A stretch of DNA of 63,871 nt, the filler included, from Sphacelaria rigidula (taxonomy: Eukaryota), in the NCBI GenBank assembly GCA_964200075.2. It is 6 parts of 6 records of this genome, joined end to end, with 100 filler letters (N's around TTAATTAATTAA, not from the genome) between each part and the next. Parts side by side here need not be neighbours in the genome. Positions count along the whole stretch, not along the records: positions 10,663 to 21,224 come from CAXNAA020006272.1; 5 more parts are not named here. One strand, 5' to 3'. The position numbers and the translations under genes are program-made. The notes below the pieces were generated by a model that searched no databases, was not told where the DNA came from, and saw nothing but the letters and a program-made list of their open reading frames with translations. Shown piece by piece: positions 10,663 through 49,900 of this stretch. The number at the start of each line of letters is the position of its first letter. Within the stretch, counting starts at the first letter, position 1.

Positions 10663-11917
10663 CGATAAAAAACACGAAGTCAAAATATTAATAAGATTAT
10701 AATGGTGACCACCACAGAAGACTGCATGCCCCCCCCCCCCGGCCTCCTCCCGTGGTCAATGGTCAGACGACTAAGGCAAGCAACAAATGAGTACGCCCCC
10801 CCCCGGCCTCCTCCCCTCGATGCCCCTCCCGGTCTACCAAGCAGCTGCCGGGACGAGGACAGGTATACTCCTGCACTTCCCTCCTTCGTTCCGACACGAA
10901 CTCGCGAGCACTCCCAACACACCGCAACACGCAGGAGCCCCTCCAACTATGCCAAAACAACACACCTTCACGTAGTGTGACCTCGCTCTTCTCCCCGGAG
11001 TCGATCTCGTGGAGGCAGCCTAGCCGAACGCCGAAACGGTGCGCACACCTGGCATGTCAGGTCGATACTCGTGACACGTTACGATACAACCTCTACTGCT
11101 TGCGGCTTTGAAAGTAAACCACCCGCCTTGACAGACAAGGACGCTTTCTTTCCCACCGAAACGAATGAGAAAGACGACGAAAAAAAGGCCGCAACTCCCT
11201 ATTCCTATTCCAACATGAACTCGCTCGCACTCATAAAGCAAGGGGAGCATATCTTGTACTCTGTTGAGCTACTGTATACGTCGACACAAAAGCAGTTGTA
11301 TTATACACTCCATCACGCAAGCTGATAACGAGCACTGTAGGACTGAAATTTTCTTCATCAATCAGAAAATTGCGCGCTAAAAACGTCCCTCTCCATGTGC
11401 AAAAACGAAGAAGATAGGAAATAAAGACGGTACTCTGCTGTCCATCGCTCACGAGTCTTGACCGTCCATTTGGTTAGACGCAATGCCATGCCATGCCATG
11501 CCATGTCGCGCCGTCGCCCTGCCAGTGGACTGAGAGCAAGAACAGCATTCACGAGGGAGGGAACAGAGAGCATGAGCAAAGGCCGTTATGCGCTAGCACT
11601 TCATCACAAAGCTCTCACGGCGGGGCCATACTGTACTTTCTCTTGGGTGCCGCCGGTGCAACAACACGAAGCCAACGCCTGCACCGCACCCCAACATACC
11701 GTGTCATCACCGATTCAACTCTCCGATAAGTTACCACCACCACGCATCGAGTGGCAAATTGCAGTGAGCAGGAAGTCCGAGCACATGCCATGCGTCAACC
11801 GACGCGGTGGAGTGCTGACACGTGAAGCGGAGAGCTCGGGGTGCGCTACAACTGGGTGCCACATGCCGCACGCCAAAGCCCTCAATACTTACAGTAGTTA
11901 CTGTGCCTCCGAGGCCT

Positions 11918-14900
11918 TCACTTCCTGCGCCTCGACCTTGCTCCCCGTCCTCCCCCACCCTTGCCTCCGCCCCTGCCCCCGCCTCTGCCTCCCGTCGTGC
12001 CTGCGGTTGCGTTGGCGTTAGTGTTGGTGTTGGTGCTGGCGTTATCGTTCAATTTTTTCGTCGTCACTCTTCCGTCCTTCTTGACTGCCGCCGCCGCCTG
12101 ACCGTTCATTCTCCGGCATCCATTTGTCCTCCTGCCGTCAAAACCCGTCCGGTTGGTGTTTCCGTCTGGTCCACCTCCCGCCATCCTGATCCCACCCACG
12201 TCTGCCGGCTGTTCGCTCTGGCGTCCTGCTTCAGGCGAAATGTTCAAATTTGACGCGGAAGTGAAGCAAGGCAACCCGTCAGCCGCCTATACTAGCGCAG
12301 GGACCACACGTCCGGCCACGACAGAGAGCACTCTACTCTCCACGTCCTGCGTGTACGTCGCCTTTTTCTCGTATTTCCTCTCTACGCGGGCGGTTTCGAC
12401 ACTTGAGAGTCTACCATGGAGGGATTTCGCTTCGAGTGTTGATGAGTTCACAGGTAAATCGTGTTCGTTTTCGCTTTGTTCTTCGGCATCTAACCAACGA
12501 GCCAGGCCCTTTACCAACACTGGCTGAACACAAACGTTCAGTACTTCCCACTCCTGCCTCGTCACGATTAAAGCGTCACATCTCACCCGTGAAACCATCA
12601 CGGACGACGAGTAGAGGGCAAGTCGGGAAAGCCATTCAAAATGCTCGAGAGACTAGAAGCAAATAATTCTATACGGATCGTCTACTTCGACATCATGGCC
12701 AACGCCACTGCGGTCTCTATTGGCTCACCTCCGGAAAACTCTACAAACGCCGCCCGTTCCCTCTCTGCATAGCTCGTCCCGCCCCCGTCCATCATCTCCG
12801 CAGCCAGCTTCGCAGCCAACGCTTCATCCCCGGCGGTCTAGTGGGCAATAGATCAGCGCAACGGGAAGGTCCATCAAACAGCATTCAGCACTGTGTCGCC
12901 CTCGAGGCACGTCACCAAGCCTTTGTCGTGTATGGCGCATGCTTTACACCCAAGGGCACAAACCAACGCGCCGTACAGGTTGCCAACACGGATATGTACG
13001 TGCACATTTACCACCAAACATCAACAGATACTGCTCGATTTTGATCGATTGGTTGATTGAATGATTGAGTGATTGATTGTCGCGCTTCAACGGATCCCCC
13101 TGGGATCCAACTGTGGTCACATGATAGACCCGAGATGAAAACATATGAAACACGAGAGAAGGATACGGAATGGTGGAACAGACAGAGTAGACTAAGAAAA
13201 TAAAATAAGGGAGAGGGGAAGGGGAAGGGGGGGAATCTGCCACGAATCTAGTACGTCCAGCACCAAGCGCGGCACCCGCCGACAAGCTAATTTATGTGAG
13301 GCATTACCTCCTGCCGCACTCCATGCGCCTTCTCCATCTCCTTTCGGAAGACGTCCGGGTCGTGAGGGGCTGCCAGCTTGTTCCTGGCGGTGATCATGCC
13401 GGCCAGAAGCGAATCATCATCCACCAGCACGTCAAAGTGCCAGCCCTCCCTCTTAAAGACCTGGACGGTCTTGTCCGCATTTTCGTTGCCGACCGCATCA
13501 TAAGCCTGCCGTTATCGTTTTCAGGGGGTTCGGCGCGGTATCAAAGAGCAGCAAGGGCAACGGAGACACGACAAGCGCTTTCACTACTTCCATCGCTACA
13601 TACATGTACTTCAATGTACTGTAGTTGCCCCGACTGTCATGTTCAATACAGTGAATAGTTTCCTTGGCGACCGCACTCACGGTGAAACTGATTGCCTTCC
13701 TTCTGGCGTTCCATCCCTCGCCGAGGAAACCCACTGGCACTGACAGCGAGTCCCCCGGGATCCATGCGTACGGGTCGAAGTCGTAAAAACGGTTCACGTG
13801 CCGTGCCTGGTCCTGTGTGCGGCATTTCGTGCCGACCAATGGTGACGGGAAACAAATACAAACAGGCAGGAGCATCGACACGATCAGTTCGTCGAGTCGG
13901 GGCTCACGTGCACACAATAGGCGAACCCACGGGTGAGCCCGTAGAGATACAACAGCAGTCGGGCAAACGCAATACCCACGTATGCAGCGGGCAGAGCTGG
14001 ACACATCAAGGCGAGGCCACTTGAGCTAGCAGTGACTTATCTCAAATGCTTCGTCATATGGGATGGGGAAGAATCGGGCCGGTGTCTCGAAAACTCGAGA
14101 ACGAGGCCCCTCATGCCGCCGCCGAGGAGCCATGACCACGAGTGCGCCAGCCAAAGACGCAAACGCAAAAATGAACATCTCCCCCATGACAGCGGAGACA
14201 CCGACGCCGCTCTGTTTCGGAACCATCGTGGAAAGAAATGCATGCCTCGACACGACCGACAGATTACGTCTTGCAGGTGTCGGCCATTTCGAGTCGGACG
14301 AGACTGCATACGGGAGGGAATGAAAATACAGCCAAGGCCAAGGCAGGTAGCATGAGATATAATTGTCCTTGACTTTGCCTTGCTTTGCTTAATCCGGACA
14401 CTAATGTACAAGCACACCAACAATTAGTGCATAGCCTTCCTAGCCTTGGCATCGATTTCATGGTATCTCTTCGACAACTTTCGAGTCGACATGTACAGAC
14501 GACCACGTTTGCTTCTTCTCACCACCAGCTCCGTGGGACGGCTTTCATCCTGCAGGTGCACCATCTCGCAGATGCGAGCGGTGATCGCGGCGCCCTTGTA
14601 AAGACTGTGGTAATCGCTCCTCTTTACAACGCTCTCGAAGCGACCCCTCGCCTCTCGGGCAACCTGCGTGGAGACCGACTCGGCCAGCTTGGCGTCCAGC
14701 CTCCCCGAAGCCAACCTTTTCGCGCCCTCCTCCTCATGTGCGAGCGCCGAAAGGGCTTCGGCGGCAAGCCATGCCCCCACGTGCTCCTTCTCGCCTGAAA
14801 ATACCTCCCACCACTTTCCTAGGCTCACCACAAAGCCCACAAATGACTTCACGTGGTTCTGGGCATGTCGGCGATCAAGGAAAACGTCAGGTGATGTATT

Positions 14901-15832
14901 GAAGTCACGGGGAGCAACGGACGATCGGCGAGGAAAGGACACCCTGATGTGACAAGGACACCAACCCAGCACGGAAGAGGTACGCGAGCAAACAGTGCAG
15001 ACACGATCGGTGCTGCACCAGTTCCGAATCAGAGTATTTCATCACGCTTCTGTGCTTCCTCGACCAACTGCTTCGGGGCCACGTACTGCTGCATGCCCCC
15101 CTTTGCTGTTTTTGCGGTGTCTCGTTTCACTTCTAAGGCCGTTCGGAGCGCTCATGAACCGGTACAGGGGCATCTATGTACCTACGGTACCACAACCCAC
15201 TCACGTGTAGTCCTGCCCTTGGTGGGTGTGCTACGACACACCACAAACACACCTCACGAAATCCACCTCGACTCAGCACACGAGTTACCTTGGCTACCTT
15301 ACTTACCTTCGCCTTCGGTTGGAGATTCTTGTACGTCGATGTTGACGTGACCACAGCCACTTTTCCCTCAAACTCCTTCAGCTTCGTCGGGTCCTGTGCC
15401 GCGACCATCAACGCTGAGTCTATTTCGGACGAGAACCTACAGTTCCCGTCCCCACGGTGGAGGACCACAACTCCCCCAACGTACGCCGTGCACCCCTCTA
15501 CCCCTGCAGAGGTTTTATCCAGGAATCCCGTCTCCGGGATCACGAGGGACGGTAAACGATCCAGCTTCAGATCCTGTTCCGACAACTGTCAACACAGATG
15601 AGCAGTGGAAGGCAGGACGATGGATGATGGCCAGTAATAGTGTGTGTGTGCGCGCTGGGGGCTCATGGGGCATGGTCCCCCGTCGTGATCAGCGTACGAG
15701 AGGGCGAAGGGTGAGGGGATTCTTCAAGAGGACCTTGTTTTGTCGGAGATCGCAGTCACAGCTGCACACGTTGCGCTTCGTCTCCTGCCGTGCCACGTTA
15801 AAGGCGGATTGCACTGCATTGCCATAATGCTA
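11918..15832 (-). pseudogene. Multi-exon gene of unknown family, apparently disrupted, with a Gly/Arg-rich C-terminal tail
   Basis: Exon-like blocks with splice signals: 15307-15573 (cag|DLKLDRLPSL...QPKAK|gtaagt, 267 nt), ~14430-14945 (KWWEVFSGEKEHVGAWLAAEAL), ~13650-13815 (FYDFDPYAWIPGD), ~13308-13500 (GWHFDVLVDDDSLL...RQE|gtaatg) and ~11918-12600 (RGGGRGGGKGGGGRG). In-frame stops interrupt the ~14985-15180 block and occur at 12287-12289. Confidence 0.55.
13042..13140 (-). repeat. Non-LTR retroelement-like 3' end with (CAAT)n-type tail
   Basis: TTGA/GATT repeats followed by TGTCGC...GATCCCCC.GGGATCCA...GTGGTCACATG. Related copies at ~54872-55005, ~62555-62620 (opposite strand) and ~63625-63712. 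Confidence 0.6.
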
Positions 15833-16097
15833 GAACACGCCACACGACAACGTGCCGAATACTGTATTTGGTTCCGAGTATATAGCAACAACTCACAGCG
15901 AATATCGATTGCCTATACAAGCTCCGCTTACACCCTCACAAACGAACCACGAGCTGGGCCAGCCCGGAAATGGATTGAAGCTTGAAGATGGATTTAGTGA
16001 CTCAGTAGTGAGTGAGGGTTTGGCTTCGAAATTTATTTGTGGGAATCGCAAAGGCATAATAGAATACCCTGTTTCAAGACCACGTTTTTTTCATGAC

Positions 16098-16606
16098 TTA
16101 GGTCGCTTCTTATGGCAAAAAAGAATAGATGATGAAGAACTGCGTCTCTGGTCCTTCAGGTTCGTTTTACGCCCTGAAAGTGGGCTACTGTAGGCGGATT
16201 TTGACACTTTGGAGTGCCTTGATCAACTCGTTCAGATTGCTATAGGACATCTTCGCGTTTCCCGGTGACCACAGTTTTTCTTGGCCAAACTTGCACTTTT
16301 GTCCAAGGGCAGTCGAGTCCAGAGAAAACTGCTCGGACTGTGTCGTTGACAGAGACAAGTGGCGATTTTCCCTATATTTAATTGTTTTTTACCGTTCGTT
16401 GACAAAAATTCTTGTCTGGCCAAAAGATGAAAACTGCGGCCAACGGTAAACGGGTTCATGTCCTGGAACCGCCTCAACGAGTTCACCAAGTCATTTAAAG
16501 GTGTCAAACTCCGCCTAGCTCTCTTTCAAGGCGTAAAACGACGTATAAGGTCCACAAGGGCACTTTTCCACGTTTCAATTTATGTATGTTATAAGGAGCG
16601 GCCCAA
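16098..16606. mobile_element. Degenerate foldback MITE (same family as 18323-18796)
   Basis: Termini TTAGGTCGCTTCTTAT / ATAAGGAGCGGCCCAA. The two halves are mutually inverted and match the 18323 family. Confidence 0.75.
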
Positions 16607-18322
16607 GACGTGAGGAAAAACAAAAATGGCCGGTCCCTGCAACATGGCTTCGGCGTACAAAGTCCTGCGCAGAACCACTCTCATACCCCCAGTCGTAAAA
16701 AACAAGAAGCAAAAAAAAAAGCGAGGTACCACACTGCTCTGCCATACACCGGCAGGGAACAACACACACGTAGTGAGAAAGATGGGGAAAATGAAAGAAT
16801 ATATAGGAGGAAACGTAATACATACATATATATATATATATGTTCATTTCCAACACTCGAAGAGAGCTGGAGACAGCCAAAATTGGCATTGCCCGGAGTT
16901 GGGGGGAAAATAACAAAAAATATTATCTTACCATGGTAGGCCTAACTGTCTATTCGTCGTTTATCTTGTGTCATAACTTCATTATGAAATTTCAACAACT
17001 GCGCCGCGCATCGTTAGTGGCTTCTGGAAGCGGAGCCTTGGTCGGCTCAGCTCGCACTGTGCCTGCCTATTGCGTGGTGCTTCTAGTGTGTGACGTGGGT
17101 CATCAATAAAGTACGGCCAGTGCACACGTGGGCAAGCCCTTCTTGCAATCGAGCAAGCTGCACCTAACTGACGGGGGTGGTCTACCTGACGGAGCGGGTA
17201 GCAAAAACACAACGAAATTTAAAAAAAATACCGCGAGCACTTCCAACCGTAAATTTATCCTGCTAACCAAAGAAACACGAAAAAATAACAAGACCGTCCG
17301 TTGTTTCTTGGCATCAAATTGTAGATCAACTTGCTTTATGTATACGCCTATGAGTTCAAGCCATGACCTTCGCACGTGCGGCATGCTGCGTGCTTCATGG
17401 GCCCCGTTGTGTAGCAGCACACTGTACAGGCTGGTTCACACTTGTCACCGCAAAGCGTACTCATTCGAGAATCATCACTCTGGTTTTCGGAGTTAGACTC
17501 TAAACATTTGCAGTAACAACGTTCTTTAGGCCCTTACGCAACTTTTGAAATAACATTTTCTGGATTTCAACTCGCCGGTTATCGTGAGTCCCAGGGGTTC
17601 GGGAATTTTTAGGATCACACCCCCTTCTGAGACCCCCGATAACTGGTGAAATGAGAAAAAATTAGAAACCCCGTCCATCACAGGTTTCGTATTGACCCGA
17701 TGTACACGTGTGCACGTTTTCAAAATCTGACTCCGAAAACCGGCAGGAGGTCTTGCGGAGGACTGCGCTGAAGTGTACCGTGCCCAGTACAGCTTCCTAC
17801 CGAATGTTGGTTCTAGTATAGGAACGCCTTTTTCGGGTACGTTTGACATGACAACGACTCTCTTGCATCAGCTTATCGAGTTCAACTTGCCAAGCTTCGT
17901 ACAAATATTCCTTCGACTATCCCAGGACGAGCACATTCCCTACTTTTTGCTTTGAGGCGTCTTGTATCGGCTTTCGGAGGTCCTGGTATGAAGACTCTGG
18001 CAGTCGGTTAAAAAGCGCAGGAACTATGGGATAGTTTGTCAACGTCACATTTTTCCATTTGCAAGCACCAATGTCTACCGAACTGCCAACTTTGAGGGAG
18101 ATCTGAGCTATTATACTTTCTTCATGACTGAGTCTACGACAGATATGGGAGAAAGCGTCAGGACAATTACTGGGAGTTTAGCACAACAGTACCATGAAAA
18201 GAAATCCGACGACGCCAAAACCCCACATCACCGAAATACTATTACACGTTTTCGGGTATAATTCGAGCCCATAGTAACCCTTTCTAAATATATATATATA
18301 TATATATATGTTTTCCCCGCTA

Positions 18323-18796
18323 TGAGGCCGCTCCTTGTAACAGACAAGAATCAAATTATGTGAAAGTGCCCTGTTAGAGCTTTACCTCGTTTTACGCCCT
18401 AAAAGAAAGCTAGGCGAGTTGGACGCCTTGGAATGACTTGCTCTACTCGTTGAGGCGGTTCCAGCATATCTTCCCGTCTTCCGGTGGCCGCAGTGTTCAT
18501 TTTGGCCAAACAACAGTTGTTGTCCAGAGACGGTCAAGTCCAGAGAAAAATGGCGACGTTTTCTAGGCTTTGACCGTTTTTGACCGTCTCTGGACAACAA
18601 TTGTTGTTTGGCCAAAATGAAAACTGCGGCCACCGGAAGATGGGAAGATGTCCTGGAACTGCCCCAACGAGTAGAGCAGGTCATTCCAAGGTGTCAAACT
18701 CCGCCTAGCTCTCTTTTAGGGCATATGACTAGGTAAAAGCTCCAAAAAGGCACTCTTCCAGATTTTGATTCTGGTCTGTTGTAAGGAGCGGCCTGA
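18323..18796. mobile_element. Foldback (full-length palindromic) MITE, 474 bp, TA-flanked
   Basis: Termini TGAGGCCGCTCCTT / AAGGAGCGGCCTGA with TA on both sides (18321-18322 and 18797-18798). The arms are inverted almost to the centre (~18560). Confidence 0.88.
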
Positions 18797-19237
18797 TACA
18801 TCTCCGAGCTGATGGCGGTTCCTGCGATTTAAAGCATGTGGAGATTGAGTAAAAATTGAACAGGGAATTCAGTCTGTCAAGTTCCAAAAAATTGAGAGGC
18901 TGCTGAGTGGTCAAGGTACCTTTTCGCCCAAAGTGTCACCGCTACGGCCTTGAATAGAGATCTGGTCGTCACCTTCTTCAATTCTACATGGCGGTCAGTA
19001 TGATACCATGTATGGCACAATTGAGTAGGTATTGCCGACGACATTTGCTGATTGGTGAATTTTGGATGGTGAGCGAAAAGCAGACTGTACCTGACCCGAA
19101 CTACGCGACAGAGCAAATACCGTCGCTACCGCCTACAAAGAAGACCTTGGCTGTTGCCTTTCAATGTGATCGATGTTCTTCATTACTTGTAGTAAAGGGC
19201 TTGCAAGCGGCGACACAAGCACCGTTCACGTTCTTAC

Positions 19238-19336
19238 CTTCTCGTTTTGACGCTGCTGCTGCAACTTCTGAATGCGCTCTTGCGAGCGCCTTTCCGCCTC
19301 CTCCGAGGCCAGAAGCTTTCGCTTCAACTCCGAGAC
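19238..19336 (-). CDS. Coiled-coil exon cassette, copy A (99 nt, VSELKRKLLASEEAERRSQERIQKLQQQRQNEK)
   Basis: CAG acceptor and GTAAGA donor. Open in phase 0. Homologous to copies B-D. Confidence 0.55.
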
Positions 19337-19685
19337 CTGATGCACGCATCATATCGTTTGTGATTCGTGTGGGACGGGACCAAGAGCACGGAAAATGATA
19401 GAAAAAAAACCCGGCAAGGGTAACACGGGGATATACAGGGCGTGATATCAAGACTCAAGAGTGCTCAGCCCTGCACTGTATACGACCGCTGAACAAAAAG
19501 CAACGCCCGAAATGTGCTTGTTGGATCTGACTGCTTGCAGTGCAGGCCTGAGCGCTCTCGTTTCTTCATGTCATGCACAGTGTATCCCCGTGTTTTGTTC
19601 GTGCTGCCCGTTTCCGACTGCACTTCTTTCCCATACCCTTGGCCCTACGCCGCGTGAATCGCAGACGACATCATGCGTGCATCAG

Positions 19686-19784
19686 GTCTCCGAGTTGCAG
19701 CGAAAGCTTCTCGTCTCGGGGGAGGCGGAGAAGCGCTCGCAAGAGCGCATTGAGAAGTTGCAGCAGCAGCGTCAAAACGAGGAG
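19686..19784 (+). CDS. Coiled-coil exon cassette, copy B (99 nt, opposite strand)
   Basis: CAG|GTCTCC...GAGGAG|GTAACA. Translates VSELQRKLLVSGEAEKRSQERIEKLQQQRQNEE. Confidence 0.5.
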
Positions 19785-19797
19785 GTAACACTGCTAT

Positions 19798-19893
19798 CTT
19801 CTCGTTGTGACGCTGCTCCAACTTCCCACTGCGCTGTTACGACCGCTTCTCCGCCTCCTCCGAGGCGAGAAGCTTCCGCCGCAACTCGGAGAC
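19798..19893 (-). pseudogene. Coiled-coil exon cassette, copy C (96 nt, inactivated)
   Basis: CAG acceptor retained, but there is an in-frame TAA and the donor reads AT instead of GT. Lies tail-to-tail with copy B across a 13-bp spacer. Confidence 0.65.
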
Positions 19894-20147
19894 CTGATGC
19901 ACGCATCATGGCGTTTGTGATCCACGCGGCACAGGGCCAAGAGCACGAAAAAGAAGTGCGATCAGAAACGGGCTGCATGAGCAACACGGGGATACACAGT
20001 GCGTGACATATAGAAACGAGAGCGCTCAGCCCTGGACGGCATTCGGTCGCTGAGCAACAAACGACACTATTGATGTTCATATTGTGTCTCAAATAATTGT
20101 AGTACAAGGCGTGAAAGCGGCGACACAAGTACCGTCGGCGTTGTTAC

Positions 20148-20243
20148 CTCCAGGATGTGCTGCTGCTGCACCTGCACAATGCGCCCCTGCGAGCGCCTTT
20201 CCGCCTCCTCCGAGGCCAGGAGCTTCCGCCGCAGCTGGGACAC
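20148..20243 (-). CDS. Coiled-coil exon cassette, copy D (96 nt, VSQLRRKLLASEEAERRSQGRIVQVQQQHILE)
   Basis: CAG acceptor and GTAACA donor. Open in phase 0. Confidence 0.5.
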
Positions 20244-20870
20244 CTGATGCGCGCACCATGCAATTTGTGATTTACGCGGCACAGGACCAAGGGCACGGGA
20301 AAGAGGTGCAATCAGAAACGGGCTGCATGAGCAACAAGGGGATATACAGTGCTTGACATGAAAGCATGAGGGCGCTCAACCCTAGACCGGAAAAGAACAC
20401 TCGTGTCAGCTACATCGCATGAACTACAAAGTACTTCGTGTGCCGCAGACACTTCTACAGACAGACCACACGTACGTGACGGCTCGTCTCCTCCACAATA
20501 ATTCTCGCGCCGCTGGGTACTGTAGTAGGGTGCAGATATCGGTACCCGCACGTCGTGTGGCACCGCTGATGACAATACGGCAGTTCGACCTCATGGGGTG
20601 TGCACGTGTGCAAAGCGCACAGTATTTGTCACCGCATTTCGAATGCTCGCAGCGTAGGACACATACTCTCAGCGATATCCTCTCAACAGTTCAGTCGTCA
20701 TCGTCGTATGACTCTTCAAAGTATCCATGTTTCTTGATCGGTTCCAAGGCGTTGCATCACATGAAAAAGCCAGATTATTTTTCCCGTCTCTCTCGTCTTT
20801 ACCCGAATATTCAGCTTAACCCTTTTGGGACTGAAGCTTACCCACACCACGTTCACGACGTGTTAGTAAA

Positions 20871-21224
20871 ATAATAATAAACAAGTCTGGGAGCGACCTG
20901 TCCAATCAGGGCGAGGCGAAATTTATCGACCACATCAGAACGACCAGTGGGGGGGGGGGGGCTGTTGCCGGGAGTGATGTCACTGCAAAGTTGGTGTACC
21001 CTGTCCCTGGCCCACAGAAAAGCCTTCGAAGCAAAAGAAAGCCTACATTCTCGGGGCTCGGATTCCCGATTTTTTCATCATTTACTTGCATTTTATGTAG
21101 GCCCGACCTCCCATCCCCCGAATTTTTTTTGGGTCACCATCCTATAGTAAACCCTAGTTGATAGCACTAACATGTAATGCTCGGGGGAAATTCGGGAATA
21201 AATGTACCCCGCTCTATATATGTG
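20871..21224 (+). repeat. Dispersed repeat (~350 bp), second copy at ~40838-41270
   Basis: Both copies begin (ATA)n..AAGTCTGGGAGCGAC and end TATATATGTG, with colinear interiors. Confidence 0.85.
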
Positions 21225-24068: not shown

Positions 24069-25500
24069 TTACCGACGAAAATGACGCAAATCAACCTCAC
24101 GCTCCCATGTAACACGCATGACTCCTTTCCAATGTGTTTGATACATTACCGCTATCTTACTTCCACGACCGCGAACCAGTTGATGATCCGAAATCCTATC
24201 TACCTCAACGCGTTCCAGGGGTGCATCCACATCCTCGACCGTCATATGATACGGCGGAGGTTTGATCGCATACTTGGTCAACACATACTGGCTAAGCCCC
24301 ACCGGCAGTTGTTTGGGCATGTTCGAAGAGTCATGAGGGGGGATACACGGTTTGTATCGTAGCATCGAGACGCGATTTTTCGGTTTCAAACCAGGTTCAT
24401 CCGTGGGAAAATCTAAAAACAAAAGTTTTGCTCCCACCGGACTCTTGTCGGGTGCGGTAGCGCTTGGACCAACAGCTGAAATTTCCAAAGGACCAGTCCA
24501 ATTCAAGGATAGTTTCGCCTTCAACACTTCATCCAAAGATGATGATTCCGAGCTAGCCCCTTCATTGATGGTCTTCACATCGTTATACACCCATGCCTAC
24601 TGGCCTACCTTCCACACCGGGCGGTTATGCACCACATCATCCAACATTGAGTTCGCCCTGGCCACCTTGGCCAAATTGATTTTGTTCTGTCCTCGTACCA
24701 CTTCATATGCAAGGCGAAGACGACTGCTAACCGACAAATGATACTCTGCAACATCACGATCCAGACTTTGATGTCCACCTGTATTTTTGCGTTCGAATAC
24801 CGTTAAAGGTAACCTAGGTATGCGTCCAATATGAATTTCATTCGACGACAATCCCGTAGCGGCATTGACTGTATTGTGGCAGGTGCAGATCCCAGTCCAT
24901 CTGTCTCTCATTCGCTACAGCAGCAAGCATCTGCGCCATCGCATGGTTCACTCGTTCTGTTCCACCATTGGTGGAAGGGTGATATGAACCAGTAAAAATG
25001 CGATGGGCACCCAAAAGGTCACTGACGGCGGCTGAAAGTTTGCCTGAAAAATGCGGGCCGTTGTCAGATAGTAAGCGTTTGGGCACACCCCACAGTGCGA
25101 TGTACATATAGACAAGAATGTTGGCGGTACCTTCCGCGGTATAACTACTGGGGGGAACGGCGTGCATCACCGCATGTCGACTAAATCTATCCGTAAACAA
25201 CAAAATATACGTATTCCCACTATCCGCCAGGGGTAAAGGACCAAAATCGTCCCACGAAACTACTTCACCAGGCCCGTTTGGGAGTGGCATGGAAACAATC
25301 GGTCAACGAACTGTTTGACGAGAAGTGTTTCGCGCGTGACACAAAAGACAACGCCTCACCCACCAATGACAACACTGATCCATACAAATCCACCAACGAA
25401 AACTTTCCAACATCTGGGAGGTCCTAATGGCGCCTAAATGAGTCGATTCCTGTGAATGACAGTCGTGTAGAACCCATGGGCGCAGGAGCATCGGGACATA
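24069..25500 (-). pseudogene. Gypsy integrase with GPY/F-like motif and C-terminal chromodomain
   Basis: HHCC finger (CHSQESTHLG...CLLC). Core motifs SWDDFGPLP, TDRFSR, LSDNGPHF and YHPSTNGGTERVN. WTGPLEI. Chromodomain VEVDRISDH...YQTHWKG...TWEREVDL. Confidence 0.95.
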
Positions 25501-26549
25501 GATGCGGATGGGTTCATCACCTAGCAAGCGGGCATGTCGACTTGTAGGCTTCCCCCTGGGGAGGGCTGCTGTTGGCCGGCGAACTAAAAGAACTATACCA
25601 TCATCATCCGTATGTAGCATACCTTTCCTTGAAAGTTCAGTAACTTCATCCTGTGTGGGCGCTACGAGATTCCCGATTGGCAAGAGGAATTCGGTTTCTG
25701 AGAATGGACATGGGCAACCTTTAGATATATAACGGATAACTGATTTACAAGCAGGTTCCGCCTGTTGTTCCCGGGCCCAATCGGCGTGGGAGAAGAGAGT
25801 CAAACGTTCCTTGAATACACCATCTGTTGAAGCGTCGACTTCGTGTGGGGTCGGTTCGGGGCGGGGTTGGTACGAAGCGGTGATTTCGGAATCAAGGGTG
25901 AGCCTACCATTTGGTGTACTCTTAGACAGAACGTTAACGTTTACTCCTGCGTCGATTAGAGTGGAGGGTGTTGTGGTGGTGTTTGCACTATCATGACCAA
26001 GGGAGATAGGTACAGCCGTGGTTTCGACTATGGTTGGTAGGAGCGGCACGGTCGGGGTCGATTTTCTCGGGGCCTTGCGTCGCGGGGGCTGCGGGGGCGC
26101 AAGGAAACTATCGGGGACCGGGGTGGGGGCAGGGAGGGGAAGGTCAGGACCAGATACGGTTAATTTGGTGGCCGTTTCGGCGGTTCGCCGTCCACGAGTC
26201 CTACTCGAAATCAAATCTCGAACTTCAACTGGTAAGACGAAGTCAGCAAAGTACGGTTCTACACCTGCTGCGAAAACCATGCGCTGGCCAGTTGCACGAA
26301 AATGATCATAGCCAACAGTATTCGTAGACAGTTCATTCCAAACTGAGTACAACAATTGAGGTTGCAAGCTACCTAGGACTGATTCGTGGGCTGTGGTCGT
26401 CAGCCCACCCATGCCTAAAGCCGGTGTTTCTCTCAGTGAAAGTGATGCGCAGAGACCTCTATGTCCATTCCTGCTTATGAAATATACAATGTCTTCGGTG
26501 AGATCGGTGATACGTCCCACGGGGGATTCATCGATAGGTTGAGCTGGCG

Positions 26550-27900
26550 TGGGCAAGCGTGACAGAAAGTCGGCGTTTGCATTCTGGGAACCTGTGCGGT
26601 ACTCCAGTTGAAAGTTGTACGACGACAGGATTTCGGACCAGCGTTGGACCCTAGCGTTGTTTTCCGCCATTTTGGCAAGGCATTCCAAAGACTTGTGATC
26701 GGTATAATTAAAAACGGGATATCATACAAATACTGACGCAGACATCGTACGCCCTAAACAACTGCGCCGGCTTCTTGTTCCATGACAGACCAATTCTGTT
26801 CATTCGGACAAGTGGTGCGACTCAGATAGACGATGGGACGAACAGTAGCATCGACTTGCTCCTGTTCTAATGTGCAGCCAAACCCAATTTTGGAAGAATC
26901 TGTGTGGAGCCGGAAAGGGCGGGAACCCTGCTCCGCGGCCGGCCAGTCGGGGAAGACGAGAATCAGCGGGCGCGAAAGGGTGTCAAGGAGGCGGCCGACG
27001 ATTTTTTCCATTTCCAATGTGAACACGATTTTCATCCCTTTTTTGAGGAGGGTGGTGAGGGGTTCGAGCTTTTGGGCAGGGTTTGGCAAGTATTGTCTGT
27101 AGTAGCTTAGACCTCCCAACAAGGAACGCAGTTGAGAAATGTCCCGTGGCATGGGCATATCGGAGAGTGCGGCGACCTTGTCGAGGTTTGGGTACGACTT
27201 TCGGGGGTGATGCAATGACCCAAGAACTCAATCTTCGTGGCCCCAACGCGGGATTTGGAGGGTGCGAGTTTCAAGTTGTGTTGTTCAAACCGATTGAAGA
27301 TTGATATCAACTGTTCGACGTGTTCAGCCGGTATGGAATCGTAGCATTCGGCATCATCAAGGTACATATAGCATTTGGGCAATCCATCAGTTACACGGAA
27401 CATCACACGTTGAAACGCACCTGGAGCTCCGGCGGCACCTTGTGGTGTAACCAATCACTCGTACAAACCTGATGGCGTGCAAAACGCTGTCAGTTCAATG
27501 GAAATTGGATTCATCACGAGCTGGTAGTAGCCGGACTGCGTCTCAAAGTTCGAAAATACTTCACCCCCGCCAAGAGAGTCAATAACTTCATCAATTCGTG
27601 GAAGTGGCAGCCGGGCGATTTTGGCGACAGCGTTCAATCGTTGATAGTTGACCGTCTGTCTGATTTTGCCATTCTTCTCACGGACGACTACTGAAGGTGA
27701 GGCCCACGGGGACGTCGAGTGCCGAATTAAACCAGCGGATAAGTAACCATCGAGAATTACCTGGATCTTATCCGCTAAGACGGGGTTCGTACGGTACGGA
27801 CGCATAGCGATAGGCGTAGTGCCATCAGGAATCTTGATCTTAAACGGTGTCGTGGTACATCGACCTAAATCCAAGGGTGCAGTAGAAACCCGTTCAGAGT
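26550..27900 (-). pseudogene. Gypsy reverse transcriptase and RNase H remnant
   Basis: RPYR...SPWASP...PLPRIDE...SGYYQL...TAFCTPSGLYE*...YMYLDD...IEFLGH. RNase H motifs FRLHTDSS...PIVYLSR...EAGAVV and QRWSEILSSYNFQLEYRTGSQNANADFLSR. Confidence 0.97.
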
Positions 27901-28559
27901 ATCTAATCAAGATGGATCTCAATCTATCGATTAAAGTGCGTGTCCAACCATCGCCAGATAGATTAAAAACAATATGCCGTAAGTGAGGGGGAATGTCATC
28001 CCACAACTTTTGAAAACTGGCTCGTTGTTCTAGAGAAAATCTATCCAGTAATGCAGTTGGGGGTTGAGAGTCAGGCGCATCCGTTGGATTTGTCACCACG
28101 ATAGGGTCAGGCATGTGTAGCGGAGGGGGGGCCGTGAATTTTGGGGGATCAGTCGGCGAGTTGTTGTTCGCCGGGGGGCACACATCTGACAGGGCGGTTC
28201 GTATGAGAGGCGCTTGCATAACCCAACAACTGACCGTTGAGTATATCGAAACATGCCGGGAACGTGAGGTAAATGGTCTGCCTACCTTCGTGGACAAAGA
28301 CTTCGGTCTGTTCAAACGGACCAACCTGTGCTTGGTCAGGTTTGAGCAATTCGACCAAATAATGTCCTGTGAGGGCGGGCGATCCATTGCGTCTCATGAG
28401 GTTCACTTTAACAAGTTGGGGTTCATGAGAAAGCGAGACTACAGGTTCACCAACATAGTACAGGCGGAAAGCGTTACCTGTTTGCGTGGGTTCATCCTCA
28501 TAAGCATGAGCTCCCGAATCAGTGTCGAAGTGACCCAGTGACAGTTTGCCTGTGACTGG

Positions 28560-28920
28560 ACGGTTCGGGACAGGTGTGTCCATCGTGTACGTGTGTGTGG
28601 AAAAACGAAGCCAACTATCTCGACCCAACAAAACGTCAAAAGACATGGAACCATTGGGCACTATTAGTGCCCATACGGACAACCGAGCATTGGGAGCAGT
28701 ATCCTGGTAGAATTGTACACTTAGTCTCACCGATTGATTGACCGTAAGAGATTTTGAGAACCAAACCCACCAAAAACTCGAGGGGCAAGGTGAACAGACA
28801 ATGCTCGTCCGCCGCACCCGCGTTGATCTTTTGTTGCCAGCAGCTGGCTGTAATGAACGTTTGAGGTGAACCAGAGTCTGGTAGTGCAAGAGCTATCAAA
28901 TGATAGTTTGCACGCGCTCC
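28560..28920 (-). pseudogene. Gypsy aspartic protease remnant
   Basis: ALALPDSGSPQTFI (D-S-G motif) and, after a frameshift, FDVLLGRD. Confidence 0.8.
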
Positions 28921-31819
28921 ACTATGAAAACCTATCTTGGTCGTAAAAGAAGCATCATCAATAGTTGCAGTACCACTGACGAGATCGGGCCCGAATTCGG
29001 GTAAGACATCTGACACATCCTGCTTTGCGTATTTAACGACGGTGCTAAAATACACCTGTTGATGATCCTGTGGGACAAGCTTTTGGTCGGAAGGATGGTG
29101 CATGCATGGAGTGTCAGTGTTTGTGCCTGGAATATTTGTTTCATCAGTTGAGGGTTGAATATCATATACTGCAACGGAGGGGCGATGCCGGGGAAGGGCA
29201 GTTGTCGTGGTTGGATCCGACGACTGATCTGTACGTGGTGTTTCACCCTTATTGGCCAGCAGAGGGGGCGAATCGTCACTGTGCAAAGCGGAATCAATTA
29301 CATTATCCAGCTTGGTTGGAACAGGGAAGAGTCATCGGGGCGTGGTGTTGAGTTTGACATGCCAATCAACTTAATACCATCACTAGTTAGGGCCAACATG
29401 GGAAGTTTTGGTGACGATTCGTCTGGACGCGAGGTTGGTAAAGCTGTACTGTTCAACCCGGCGTCTATTCAAGAGGCCAACGTGGTCGAGTTAGGAGACG
29501 AGTCGTCTTGCGTAACACTTTGTTTGCCTGGTGACGAACACACGATTAAGGTGCCTTCATGACTAGGATGCGAACGTCCATGAGTCGGCGAAGTCTCTGT
29601 CCCTACAGACGGCAACGCTTCATCGGAAATGGGGTCTAACGTAGTCCACGCGGGGTGGTCAGGGAGCAGTAACGATCTGTTCGAAATCTGGGGAGTACCG
29701 GCCCGTTCCACTCTAAGGTTTTCATCTGTCAGAACCCACACGCAATCTCCTTGGAGTTCACGTGCGCTTGCTACATCAGGGTTATCTACATGGTCATCTG
29801 GAGGAGCCCGCCTCTGGTGACGCGTGTAGCGCACGAAAGGGTCGGCGGCGCCAGGAGCTATTGAAATTAGTTCTTGGACAGTCGAACCTAGGTCAAGCTC
29901 TTGGCGCACCACCTGAGTCGCTGTCACTTGGGGTTCCATTCCAACCCGCTGAGCGACGGAAAACATGGGTTCTTTGCGGTTGCGACCCTTCAAGGCATAA
30001 TTACGCTCATCAAATAAAAGGGAACCGGGCACCGTAGATTTTGCGGAACGCGGTAGGGTGGTTAGCCGGGCACTTGAGCAGTTGAGGAGTGCTTGAGTGT
30101 GTGGCTTTGAATATGGTGTTTTCCGATGAACAGTCGAAGCAGCAGTGTCTACCGTACCAGAAGATATTTCGGCTCCTGATGCGTGAGAAACTGCACTACA
30201 TGATTTCCTCTCCTATGAAGGGAGGGGATTCGATTGAATATGAGTAGTACCTGGTAAATGTAAAACTGGGTGATCAAATCCTGGGTTAAAACGTCGGGTT
30301 TGATCACTGCTCAATTGATAGTCATGCAGCGGTGCACGGGCTTCGACTATCTTGGAACCCTTCAAGTCAGTGTTAGCATATCCAGGGAACCCACACCACA
30401 TGATTGAACCCGCGGTGGCCGCCGTTGAGTCACGTGTGTGATGTTTGTGACCTGGCCGAGCGAAAAAAGAAGTGTTGACATAATATTGTTGGATACTTCT
30501 GCGGTGAATTACCGGTGATTGTTTATTTCTGATTGTGGGATTGTACCAACTGATGAGAAATGAACTACAGAATTAGAAAATAAACAAACAGGTGACGGCG
30601 CGTAGGTTTTCGACTAAGCAACGCATCCTGGGTTACTCCACTGAATGGTATTTGAAATCTCCAGAACTAGTAGAACGTTCCCAAAAGGTTGTCAAGTTGT
30701 GAGGTGAGCATCAGTGTTGTGTGGGTACCTCCCTGGTGGGGTGCGGAGGTCATCGTCAGGAAAGGTTTTTGTAGCATTAGGGCTCACGTGCAGAGATGCC
30801 ATCTGAGAATGAAGATTGGGAACACCGTCAGCGGTTTGAGTGACCGGTTGGTGTACAGGGGAATGGGCACCAACGGGGCTAGGTTAAGCATGTGGAGGAG
30901 GATTGTCTTCATCCACACTCACGTCCCTGAAAATACGTCCTGCAACAACGCCGTCATCAACATCGAAACGTTCCGGTTCGTTGTTGCCAACCGTCCCACC
31001 ACGCATGATTTAGGTTGACTGTACGGTTGTTTTATCATTGCCTGTAGGGAGCGCACCGTCCTTCGTGACATCGTGCTCCGATGAAGTCAAAGGGCGGTTG
31101 ATATTAGAAATGGCTTGTACGCGTGCGCAATTGCGCCAGATCGTTAACGTAGAGATGCGGGGGTTGAAAAATGAACATTTCGTCGTGGGAGGCAGCATAG
31201 TTGTTGAGGACTGAGGCGCAGTGAACAAAAATAAAAGGAATAGAGTAGGAGGGTACTCTCGACAGTTTTCGTTCGACATGGAGGTCCGCGCACTCCGCAC
31301 ATGTAGCGGTCTTTTACCTTTTTAATCAGGTGCAGACGAAAGGAAAAGAAAAAATGTCGAAGGCACACAACAAACCGTATGTGTTTGTGTGTTGGTGGAC
31401 AAAGTGTAGCAGCAAAGAGACAAGGAAGAAAACGAAAGTTGTCACAACCAATAGACATACAGTGACTGTCATCAGCGCAACAGCGCATTGGACAAACCTG
31501 CATGCCATGAAGGGATATATGTGTGGGACGCAGCGAACCGCAACGTCAAACCACTCAGTTCTGTTGTGAGATCATGTTGAGGTTGAGAGAAAAAAACACA
31601 CCTTTCGGATGCTGTATCGTATTTCCAGAGGCAGTATCAGCGCAGCTGGCGATACTCATATAATAGCACCGCCTAGTTCACTGAAAATAGCCGAGTTGGG
31701 GTCTTGGTGACGTACATCGTACAGGTAGACAATTAAAAGATAGACACGTACAATCGCAATATAGATATGTAGTGCAGTACAAACAGCAACGCACAAAGTA
31801 CCGAACAGCAAATAACAAC

Positions 31820-46951: not shown

Positions 46952-49900
46952 ATGGCAGCGCAAGGGATCCGGGATCGACGCAGCCTGACGGGTATCTCAC
47001 TTGGTAAGTCTCTGATTACTTTCTCCGGTAAATTTTTCAAGCACCCGGGAGAATGGAAGATCTTCGAGAAATTGTTTCTCGCTACGACGCGTGAGTTGGG
47101 CGGGGGAGGTATACCCTCTGGAAAGTGGAAGGCACCCGAGGCGCTAGCAGCAGATGCTGATGAAGCAGCCAGGACTGCTAACGAGATGGAACTTGAAACA
47201 TACCACGAGAAGAACGAGATACTGCACGGCCGATTGCAGATGAGGGTTTCGCAGGGGTTCTGGCATGCACGAGTCCTGCAGTCGCGACGGTGATCGTCCA
47301 TAGCCCCGCGCACAAAGAACTAAATGGGGACGCCTATGTAATACTTCATGCCCTGAAATATAAGTATGATGTAAGAGGTCGTTTCTGCAGGTCGGATCTT
47401 GAAGAACGGTTGACTGCGGTCAACATGCAATCCGAAGATAAGTTGGATCCATCGCGCCTGATCCAAGGAATTAGAAGCATTCAGGCGAACGCCATAGCAA
47501 TTGGTTAACCCCAGATCTCGAGTCATCTTGCTCGCAAGTTTTTTCGTTCATTACCGGACAAACACTGTCAGCCTTTCAAGACTGCCTATACGTAGCAAGT
47601 GACGAGTATGGATGAATTTGACTTCGAAGACCTTGCTCGTCGGGCAGTAGCATTCTTGAATATACAACTGAGACATTGTTTGAAACAATCTTCGAAGACA
47701 GGGAACGAGAGTGCACTAGCTACAAACGCTCATGGGGGAACGCGGGAGTCGGCATTCGCTAGATTAGGGCGACCCAACACAATGGAGACCGCCGACAGAG
47801 TTCAGAAAGCGAGCCCAAGTGCGGATGATTCTCACGGGCTGGATCGCAACGGCAACTGCTCGTATTGCCATGAACCCAGTCACAGACATAGTGAATGTAA
47901 GCGCCGGGTGCGCAACTAATGTAGACGTCTTGGACACTACATGAAAGAAATGCCGCCTGAGAGAACAACACGAAAGCGAATACGGTGACAAGCCGCGGGG
48001 CGCAAGAGCCCACAACTCAAAGATCCAAAGCGGCGATGAGGAGAGTGAAACAACAGTGGCCTGGTGTAGCCGGGCAGTTGGGGACACGGGCGGTAACACC
48101 GAAAATGCTGAGATCCATACGGTTTTTCTGGACTGTGCGGTTAGCGAACACATGCTCGGCCCGTCCTCACCTCCGATTTGAAACGTGAAGGAACGTCTGG
48201 AGTGCAAGGTACGAGTCAAGGGTTCGTGCGGGGCGAAAGAGGCTAACACCAAAGGTCGTTTGTATTTCAAACTACCGACTGAAGAACGCCGGGCTCCCCT
48301 GCATCTTGGGGTACTCCTTGTCCCGAAACTTGGCGCAGATCTATTCTCCGTTGCAGCTCTGGAAGAAAAGGGTGTACGTCTAAAATCTTATCCGTGATCC
48401 TCCTGTGCTTGAATTCGGAGATGAAATATTTCCCGTCAGCAAAGAGATAAAGAGCGTGTTTGTCCTACCAACGACTGTCGCGAATAACCAGGAGAAGGTT
48501 TTCGCATCAGTACAGGACGAATCTGATATTTGGCATCGACGCGTGGGGCCCTGTAATATCAAAAACTTGAAGCAGCTCGCGGAACGAGAAGGAATTGGAA
48601 TCAAGCTGTCAACGAATGTTCAAGACTTGGACTATCACGTATGTTCGGTATCGAAACACAAGAAAAGTACACACCCAAGATCTGATCGCCCACAGAACAC
48701 TAGGCGACTTGAATTAGTCCTCACCGGCCTACGGGATCCGCGTGTTGCTGAACCATACACCGGATGCAAATATTTGGCCATTTTCACCGACGAATTGTCA
48801 CGAATGTGTTGGATATATGCCCTGAAGTCGAAGGACGACGCCGTCGAAGCTCTGAGGGAATTCGATAAAGACGTGGCGGATCCGGAGAGACTGTGCATTG
48901 GCCGAATCAGGTGCGATGGCGGTGGTGAGTTTCAGGGTCGATCTTCTGAGTAGACGAAGTCGTTGGGATTAAGATCGAATCCAAAGCAACATGCGTTCCG
49001 CAAGGAAATGCCGTCGCCGAGCGAGGACTCGGAATATTATAGAAATAACACAGTGTCTTATGTTGGGAGCGAAGCATCTGCCGGATCAGTTGTGGGTAAA
49101 GGCAGCTCACTCAACCGTGTATGTGTGCAATCGGACTGCTTCGTCTGCACCGGACAGCTAAACACCTCAAGAACTCTGGTATGATCGGGAGCTGGGAAGC
49201 CTTGAACACATATATGAGTGGGGTTGCACAGCGTTTAAACAAGTCGAAGTTCGCCACCGTAGTGGGAAACGAGCACCTCGTGCGGAAAAGTACTATCTCG
49301 TGGGCTAAAACAGCCACAATCATACACGGCGCTTATGGAACCCGGCTAACCCGACCAGGTTCGCAAACTCTGGAGAAGTATCGTTCCGAGACAGGGCAAC
49401 TAGAGACTGCCCGAAGGAAGTGGGAATACGAGATGGTCTACCAAGTTTCACGCAACATTTCAATTACCCGCAGTCTCAGGACCACCCAAGAACTTCATGT
49501 GCAGAACTACGTCAGCTGCAATAACCTGCACCCGTTCCTGCAGAAAACACCGGTGAGAAAGGTCAGTTATGTACAAGCGCTAGGATCAGGGATCGCGCCG
49601 AAGGAGGTAACACAAAGCATTGGTTGTTGTCCGTGGATACGCGAAGACAGAAACTCGACGATCACCAAGACTCGAGTTGCGAACAAGTGGAATATGCTCT
49701 CGTGGCCGGGCTACTACACAAGAAAGGGAGCGAACAGGATGAGTTTACAAGAACAGATCCGGAGAATCACTCGGAAGCTGTCAGAGGCGACCATACTAAG
49801 GGGTGGGTTGAAATTAGTAGCGAAGAAGCGCTGGTCGCTTCAGGATCGTGTCGTGTTCGAGTGGGTTGATCCTCCAGAGGACAAAGATGTGAAACCCATT

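What the first reader, a model, noticed from the sequence alone, without database searches (positions are those of the whole stretch)
19190..20385. Bidirectional array of phase-0 coiled-coil exon cassettes: candidate exon-shuffling or inversion locus
Seen: four homologous 96-99-nt units, each with a CAG acceptor and conserved flanking intron sequence. They are A 19238-19336 (-), B 19686-19784 (+), C 19798-19893 (-) and D 20148-20243 (-). A, B and D are open, have GT donors and are phase 0-0, so they are mutually interchangeable. C is dead (TAA, donor AT). B and C sit tail-to-tail across 13 bp, forming a ~500-bp palindrome (~19545-20035). Established: in Ectocarpus, ROCO-LRR and NB-ARC-TPR genes encode one repeat per symmetric exon, with spare exons on the antisense strand, and this was proposed as a shuffling system. 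Inference: the same architecture may operate here on a 32-33-aa coiled-coil module (VSELxRKLLxSEEAExRSQERI). Alternatively, it is an exon captured and amplified by a transposon.
Basis: partly seen in the sequence, partly recalled or inferred. Interest (0 to 1): 0.72.

Follow-up and report, generated by a model that had tools for sequence, protein, structure and literature searches.

The report
Duplicated and inverted helix exon, alga
In a brown alga, one short helix-coding exon of an otherwise unknown gene has been copied four times side by side, with one copy flipped backwards so that it probably folds onto and silences its neighbour, a small-scale echo of the exon reshuffling known from algal immune-receptor candidates.

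Summary
The four units are real and lie inside a spliced minus-strand gene of a brown alga. A single-copy ancestral exon (one homologue in a distant paralogue) was locally duplicated. D and A are sense, phase 0-0, and read in frame into six downstream exons whose joints appear in RNA-type runs. C is dead. B is an intact antisense copy that forms a ~500-nt hairpin with C. The module is not a dispersed transposon: 7 copies at 2 loci, omega 0.30 (p=6e-6). A second locus has the same D-C-inverted-B order. Exon-limited exchange is evident: A/B exons are 91% alike against 66% in their flank, and D/D' exons 72% against 88% around them. Best reading: tandem exon duplication plus a fold-back inversion that masks C, with gene conversion among copies. 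It resembles Ectocarpus LRR loci in anatomy but has no LRR or TPR domain, only 3-4 units, purifying rather than positive selection, and no reorientation seen. The D-A splice joint was not seen directly; only RNA depth fits it.

The parts
20148..20243 (-). Unit D: 96-nt phase 0-0 exon, sense, open, AG/GT
   Evidence: X6 RNA-type bin depths fit a piece of about 11.5x covering this exon only (indirect)
19798..19893 (-). Unit C: 96-nt dead exon (TAA, AT donor), trapped in a hairpin with antisense B
   Evidence: RNA-type depth 0 in bin 19488-19840
19785..19797 (.). 13-bp palindrome centre holding the remnants of both donor sites (7 bp in the paralogous locus)
19686..19784 (+). Unit B: 99-nt intact exon copy lying antisense to the gene; exon 91% identical to A
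19536..20041 (.). B/C inverted repeat (exon plus about 150 nt of acceptor-side flank per arm); pre-mRNA hairpin of -408.6 kcal/mol, z -32
19238..19336 (-). Unit A: 99-nt phase 0-0 exon, sense, open, AG/GT; predicted single 30-residue helix
   Evidence: RNA-type bin depth fits 14-18x over the exon (indirect)
15307..15585 (-). Exon E4 of the host gene (phase 0-0)
   Evidence: joint 14858/15307 in X6 and X7
14523..14858 (-). Exon E5 (phase 0-0), helical, no family
13681..13812 (-). Exon E6
13308..13505 (-). Exon E7
12729..12837 (-). Exon E8
11918..12225 (-). Last coding exon E9, G/R-rich basic tail with stop codon
20815..20835 (.). End of an inserted element with a terminal inverted repeat; the matching end lies at the end of contig C21143, linking the upstream coiled-coil exon E1 to D
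   Evidence: inferred join

Best explanation
The units are copies of one phase 0-0 exon encoding a 32-33-residue charged helix in the N-terminal coiled-coil region of a fast-evolving, lineage-restricted brown algal gene (upstream exons on contig C21143, then D, A, E4-E9). Steps: (1) the single ancestral exon was tandemly duplicated with its flanks in ~350-bp units (shown: a distant paralogue has one unit; D and C lie 350 bp apart). (2) A fold-back inverted duplication just past the donor site made antisense B (inferred from the symmetric centre). (3) In the pre-mRNA, B base-pairs with C over its acceptor and exon, so C is skipped and has decayed (hairpin computed; the skipping is inferred). 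(4) D and A are spliced in frame and held by purifying selection (selection shown; splicing inferred from RNA depth). (5) Copies exchange sequence by gene conversion, which keeps B intact and makes exon histories differ from flank histories (pattern shown; mechanism inferred). It works as a slow, germline exon-duplication and conversion hotspot, not as a switch.
For: In-frame model D-A-E4..E9 of 518 aa with AG/GT at every exon and one terminal stop. Five downstream joints in two RNA-type runs. One unit at the same position and strand in paralogue C864, the only non-training hit of a 7-unit profile in 155,005 bases (E 4e-5). Pooled omega 0.38 in the VSEL frame against 0.69-1.57 in the five other frames; codon model omega 0.30, LRT against 1 p=6e-6. 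6 of 7 units intact; neutral simulation gives P(>=6) of 0 to 0.012. Hairpin z -32, and 89 of 96 bases of C pair with B in the fold of the whole cassette. A/B exon 90/99 against flank 64/97, p=2e-5; D/D' exon 69/96 against non-exon 804/912, p=5e-5; A/B/C informative sites switch between flank and exon, p=5e-4. Same D-C-inverted-B order in C9419.
Against: No splice joint at D or A is among the 15 joints shown; 200 more were hidden. The runs are only guessed to be RNA and are contigs; much of their signal over E4-E9 carries other letters and may come from a copy missing from the assembly. C' in the paralogue is still open with AG/GT although it sits in the same hairpin. B is not clearly sister to C outside the flank tree. 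The D/D' synonymous excess (pS 0.63 against 0.12 in exon E1) needs a donor copy that is not in the assembly. The p-values rest on 96-99-nt sequences and on comparisons chosen after looking.
Confidence: 0.62

Rival explanations
1. An Ectocarpus-type shuffling cassette: recombination between inverted copies (B-C, B-D, B-A) repeatedly flips or swaps exons, B being a reservoir exon that is recruited at times, in the germline or somatically.
For: Symmetric, interchangeable exons; both antisense copies (B, B') keep frame and splice sites (neutral probability 0.04-0.11); divergence between the two loci peaks in exon D while the adjacent intron is 85/87 identical, as in the paralogue pair described in PMC3341825; both palindrome arms end 6-7 nt past a donor; unit number differs among loci (4, 3, 1).
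Against: Order and orientation are unchanged between loci about 12% diverged. Contigs from two DNA-type runs bridge A-B-C and B-C in reference order with 1 and 0 differences (records 8 and 15). The positional tree is not rejected (AU 0.25 exon, 0.17 flank). Selection is purifying overall. No LRR, TPR or other Pfam domain above cut-off in the 11 pieces scanned.
Confidence: 0.2
2. B is a selected RNA decoy: it pairs competitively with C, A or D in the pre-mRNA and so regulates alternative or mutually exclusive inclusion of the helix exons.
For: Computed duplexes of antisense B with A, C and D exons are all strong (-176, -164, -141 kcal/mol; with 40 nt of acceptor side -228, -229, -195). The inverted copy is kept in both loci. 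B's exon is closest to A, the downstream functional exon.
Against: With 150 nt of flank, C wins clearly (-406 against -339 and -349), it is adjacent and is transcribed before A. Any inverted duplicate gives such energies. No isoform data.
Confidence: 0.1
3. Repeat debris: an exon fragment captured and amplified by a transposon, or non-coding local repeats.
For: Exon and acceptor-side flank are equally diverged on average (78.3% and 78.0%); the region is rich in transposon pieces; no database homologue.
Against: Only 7 matches at 2 loci by DNA and by protein, whereas the neighbouring repeat gave 931 candidates; frame-specific omega below 1; fixed position upstream of E4 in the distant paralogue.
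Confidence: 0.08

Closest known systems
Ectocarpus ROCO and other type I LRR loci with shuffled exons (Zambounis et al. 2012, PMC3341825; parts 2-6 of 7 of the text read)
   Same: One module per symmetric exon; dead spare exons in introns; intact spare exons on the non-coding strand with splice sites kept; paralogues alike except in the repeat exons; brown alga.
   Different: Helix module, not LRR; no Roc-COR; 3-4 units against up to 18 tandem LRRs; 2-3 loci against 37; order conserved between paralogues; purifying selection. [quoted passage not shown]
Ectocarpus NB-ARC-TPR loci (PMC3341825)
   Same: Helical repeat encoded per exon, with inactivated copies in introns.
   Different: No NB-ARC or TPR match; the paper found no TPR exon on the non-coding strand of these loci, whereas here an antisense copy exists in both loci.
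Alternatively spliced ROCO LRR exons in four brown algae (Teng et al. 2024, PMC11378527; passages and section 15 read)
   Same: Symmetric exons allowing combinatorial splicing; no somatic recombinant locus reported there either.
   Different: Those exons are 72 bp and phase 2 by that paper; these are 96-99 bp and phase 0.
Tetrahymena 90-bp LRR exon arrays (PMC6564038; passages read)
   Same: Symmetric exon multiplied by ectopic recombination, number varying among paralogues.
   Different: LRR, phase 2, thousands of genes.
Exon skipping by inverted-repeat hairpins (inverted Alu pairs, PMC13019027; Dscam1 pairings, PMC8042237; search listing and abstract starts only)
   Same: An RNA stem formed by inverted sequence alters exon inclusion.
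   Different: Here the inverted sequence is a copy of the exon itself and pairs with it directly; the effect on splicing is untested.

Membership tests
Ectocarpus-type shuffled LRR/TPR exon loci | Repeat module encoded by one symmetric exon of near-constant length | tested here: met
   96-99 nt, phase 0-0, AG/GT
Ectocarpus-type shuffled LRR/TPR exon loci | Intact spare exons on the non-coding strand and dead copies in introns | tested here: met
   B and B' antisense and intact; C dead
Ectocarpus-type shuffled LRR/TPR exon loci | LRR or TPR module with Roc-COR or NB-ARC domain | tested here: not met
   No Pfam match above cut-off in 11 pieces; unit folds as one helix. E5 gave only sub-0.9 ARM/TPR-like leads. 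The 5' end of the gene may be incomplete.
Ectocarpus-type shuffled LRR/TPR exon loci | Exon order and number scrambled between recent paralogues | tested here: inconclusive
   Order D-C-inverted-B conserved and positional tree not rejected, but A has no counterpart in C9419 and exon D is an island of divergence
Ectocarpus-type shuffled LRR/TPR exon loci | Positive selection on repeat exons | tested here: inconclusive
   Overall omega 0.30; the 3' part has pN 0.245 against pS 0.189; no site or branch model was run
Ectocarpus-type shuffled LRR/TPR exon loci | Expanded, clustered family with high birth and death | tested here: inconclusive
   Two loci with the cassette, one distant full paralogue, six more contigs matching E4 only; assembly fragmented
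Ectocarpus-type shuffled LRR/TPR exon loci | Somatic rearrangement (proposed, not shown, in the literature read) | not testable with these tools
   Only contigs, which drop rare variants, were available
Transposon-captured exon (Helitron, MITE) | Many dispersed copies within element ends | tested here: not met
   7 matches at 2 loci; acceptor pattern 61 hits against 54 for the control, 4 exact hits all in the two loci; control repeat 931 candidates

The most novel reading that the evidence does not exclude
The exon-reshuffling machinery proposed for brown algal LRR receptors also acts on a non-LRR, non-TPR helical module: an invertible cassette in which an intact antisense exon is both a reservoir, exchanged with or flipped into the coding strand by breaks next to donor sites, and an RNA decoy that masks a sense copy, diversifying the coiled-coil of an unknown membrane-anchored protein.
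Probability: 0.15. Interest if true: 0.75.

Novelty: new variant of a known kind. Interest (0 to 1): 0.42.

Why it matters
The Ectocarpus study called exon shuffling with antisense spare exons nearly exclusive to LRR and TPR genes and took that as a sign of a targeted, immune-related process. A small non-LRR/TPR locus in another brown alga with the same hallmarks suggests that such anatomy can arise from ordinary tandem and fold-back duplication with gene conversion. It also offers a compact test case (1.2 kb, four units, a paralogue for comparison) for whether antisense exon copies flip, convert or silence their neighbours. I found no paper describing such a coiled-coil cassette in six literature searches; the library lacks most subscription journals, and the supplements of PMC3341825, which list the few non-LRR/TPR candidates, were not read.

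Tried and rejected
Protein homologues: none for L008 exon 6316 (24 candidates) or E4 (307 candidates) among longer proteins; E5 found 1 hit among 1.84 billion representatives, an unnamed protein whose first ~105 residues read the same as the C864 exon. Atlas searches gave no hit at 0.9 or above. Pfam: nothing above cut-off in 11 pieces. Rfam: 0 matches in 18000-21200. The E5 model was poor (pLDDT 57), so no fold search was run. No listed holder run is on record as RNA; X6 and X7 are guesses. Absence of RNA-type depth over B and C is only a blank in contig data. Repeated near-matches to the acceptor pattern in C1694, C21161 and C22564 are an unrelated ~326-bp tandem repeat with no profile hit. 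No unit homologue was found in the fetched parts of six contigs that match E4 only. Tree tests had little power. Per-branch counts of synonymous and replacement changes were not obtained, so whether B evolved neutrally after inversion is open (B/B' pairwise omega 0.66). Earlier scan notes: three look-ups returned nothing.

Full report
Observation. The four units are as described: A 19238-19336 (-, 99 nt), B 19686-19784 (+, 99), C 19798-19893 (-, 96), D 20148-20243 (-, 96), all after CATCAG. A, B and D are open with GT donors; C has TAA and an AT donor. B and C form an inverted repeat at 82% across a 13-bp centre. The window is a string of contigs joined by N spacers; the finding lies in G000:C6272, window 10663-21224. 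An exon elsewhere in the window is 78% identical to Ectocarpus proteins, so the organism is very probably a brown alga.

Copy number. A DNA search of the genome with unit D gave 7 matches and a protein search with unit A gave 7 of 7 candidates, all in C6272 and C9419. The same search with the neighbouring stretch 18850-19240 gave 931 candidates, so dispersed repeats are detected when present. The acceptor pattern gave 61 hits with up to one mismatch against 54 for the control; the 4 exact hits are in the two loci. The assembly is fragmented (27,214 contigs), so counts are lower bounds.

Host gene. Downstream of A on the minus strand lie six exons, E4 15307-15585 to E9 11918-12225. With D and A they give 518 aa, AG/GT at every exon and a single terminal stop; all junctions up to the start of E8 are phase 0. 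Five joints among E4-E9 appear in runs X6 and X7, which are guessed to be RNA, and not in the DNA-type runs X3 and X5. Upstream, C9419 has a coiled-coil exon E1' ending in phase 0; its paralogue is on C21143, which matches C9419 1495-3970 at 87.5%. C21143 ends, and C6272 begins, with the two ends of an element inserted at the same position of the C9419 sequence, so C21143 and C6272 are inferred to be adjacent. That the ends look piggyBac-like (TTAA, terminal CCC) is recalled, not tested. Further upstream exons on C21143 include hydrophobic stretches that may be membrane anchors (read; inference). The protein has no Pfam family and almost no database relatives. The unit folds as one 30-residue helix.

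Ancestral state. Contig C864 holds a distant paralogue with homologues of E4-E7 at 41-50% amino-acid identity and a similar basic tail. About 1.9 kb upstream of its E4 lies one unit on the sense strand; a profile of the seven units finds it as the only other hit in 155,005 bases (E 4e-5). Its acceptor is not preserved in the alignment. So the exon was single in the family and multiplied in one lineage.

Selection. Pooled omega is 0.38 in the VSEL frame and 0.69-1.57 in the other five frames. A codon model gives omega 0.30 and rejects 1 (p=6e-6; a second model p=8e-6). Six of seven units keep frame and splice sites, which neutral simulation rarely gives (0 to 0.012). Against this, mean identity in exon and acceptor-side flank is the same (78.3% and 78.0%), because synonymous sites have diverged more than the flanks.

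Expression of the cassette. No joint at D or A is among the 15 shown; 200 were hidden and the call could not be repeated. Bin depths in X6 (4.95, 0, 1.53, 1.62) fit a piece of about 11.5x over exactly D and about 18x over A; X7 fits less neatly. The eight listed pieces per run include none in these bins, which suggests short pieces rather than intron background. This is indirect. Much RNA-type signal over E4-E9 carries other letters, and DNA runs show a 92-94% copy of the E4 region that is absent from the assembly, so part of the signal may come from another copy.

Static order, mobile sequence. C9419 carries D', C' and inverted B' in the same order over a 1245-bp block; A has no counterpart there. 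C' is open with AG/GT; the centre is 7 bp. Contigs of X3 (633 bp, 19283-19915, 1 difference) and X5 (19738-20121, 0 differences) match the reference order, though either may share the assembly's source and contigs drop rare variants. A tree pairing units by position is not rejected. Yet exon histories differ from flank histories: non-exon sequence is 804/912 identical between the loci, the D-C intron 85/87, but exon D only 69/96 (p=5e-5), with pS 0.63 against 0.12 in exon E1. A and B share 90/99 exon bases and an extra codon but only 64/97 flank bases (p=2e-5; informative sites p=5e-4). This points to gene conversion or exon replacement. These comparisons were chosen after inspection and rest on short sequences.

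Mechanism. In the pre-mRNA, C and antisense B fold into a hairpin of -408.6 kcal/mol (z -32); in the fold of the whole cassette 89 of 96 bases of C pair with B. I infer that a fold-back duplication made B, that the hairpin hides C's acceptor, and that C then decayed while D and A stayed coding and conversion from A refreshed B. C' still being open is a point against, or shows that decay takes time. Rivals are an actively flipping reservoir (0.2), a selected RNA decoy (0.1) and repeat debris (0.08).

Comparison. Zambounis et al. (PMC3341825, parts 2-6 of 7 read) describe symmetric LRR exons with intact antisense spares at 19 ROCO loci, none for TPR exons of NB-ARC loci, and shuffling overwhelmingly restricted to LRR and TPR genes. 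Teng et al. (PMC11378527, passages and section 15) note that somatic recombinant loci have not been reported and favour alternative splicing. This locus works like those in anatomy and in exon-limited exchange, but fails membership on domain content and shows no scrambled order. Supplements of these papers were not read and may list non-LRR/TPR candidates.

Verdict. A real, selected, locally duplicated helix exon with an inverted copy in an orphan brown algal gene: a new small variant of a known kind. Interest 0.42. The bold reading, an invertible reservoir-and-decoy cassette outside LRR/TPR genes, has probability about 0.15.

Noticed in passing
window 11900-15800: DNA-type and RNA-type runs hold a 92-94% identical second copy of the E4-E9 region, at depth similar to the reference in X3, that is missing from the assembly: an unassembled paralogue or a divergent haplotype.
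   Followed up: partly
L008 6316-6476 and 8125-8251: Downstream of D'-C'-B' the C9419 locus has two in-frame exons unrelated to E4-E9; the first has no other copy in the genome and no database hit. The locus may be a chimeric gene or a duplicated block inserted into another gene.
   Followed up: partly
L019 13-570: The most upstream exon region of C21143 is itself duplicated in tandem (98%) and inverted (99%) at the contig start: further local fold-back duplication in the same gene, or an assembly artefact.
   Followed up: no
L019 2194-2619 and L008 1705-2193: Exon E1 has internal helical repeats whose number differs between the two loci; pS 0.12 and pN 0.10, close to neutral.
   Followed up: partly
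L051, L052, L053 (C1694, C21161, C22564): A long tandem repeat of about 326 bp with higher-order ~980-bp periodicity, unrelated to the finding.
   Followed up: no
window 18321-18798 and 16133-16603: Palindromic MITE-like elements of very high copy number in the intron between A and E4.
   Followed up: no
window 24069-30212 and 48384-51064: Degenerate ORFs that read like Ty3/gypsy and Ty1/copia retrotransposon pol fragments (identification recalled from motifs, not searched).
   Followed up: no
G000 C2051, C14483, C5874, C15888, C7594, C4680: Six contigs match exon E4 alone at 38-41%, one with a stop inside: a wider unnamed domain family in this genome.
   Followed up: partly
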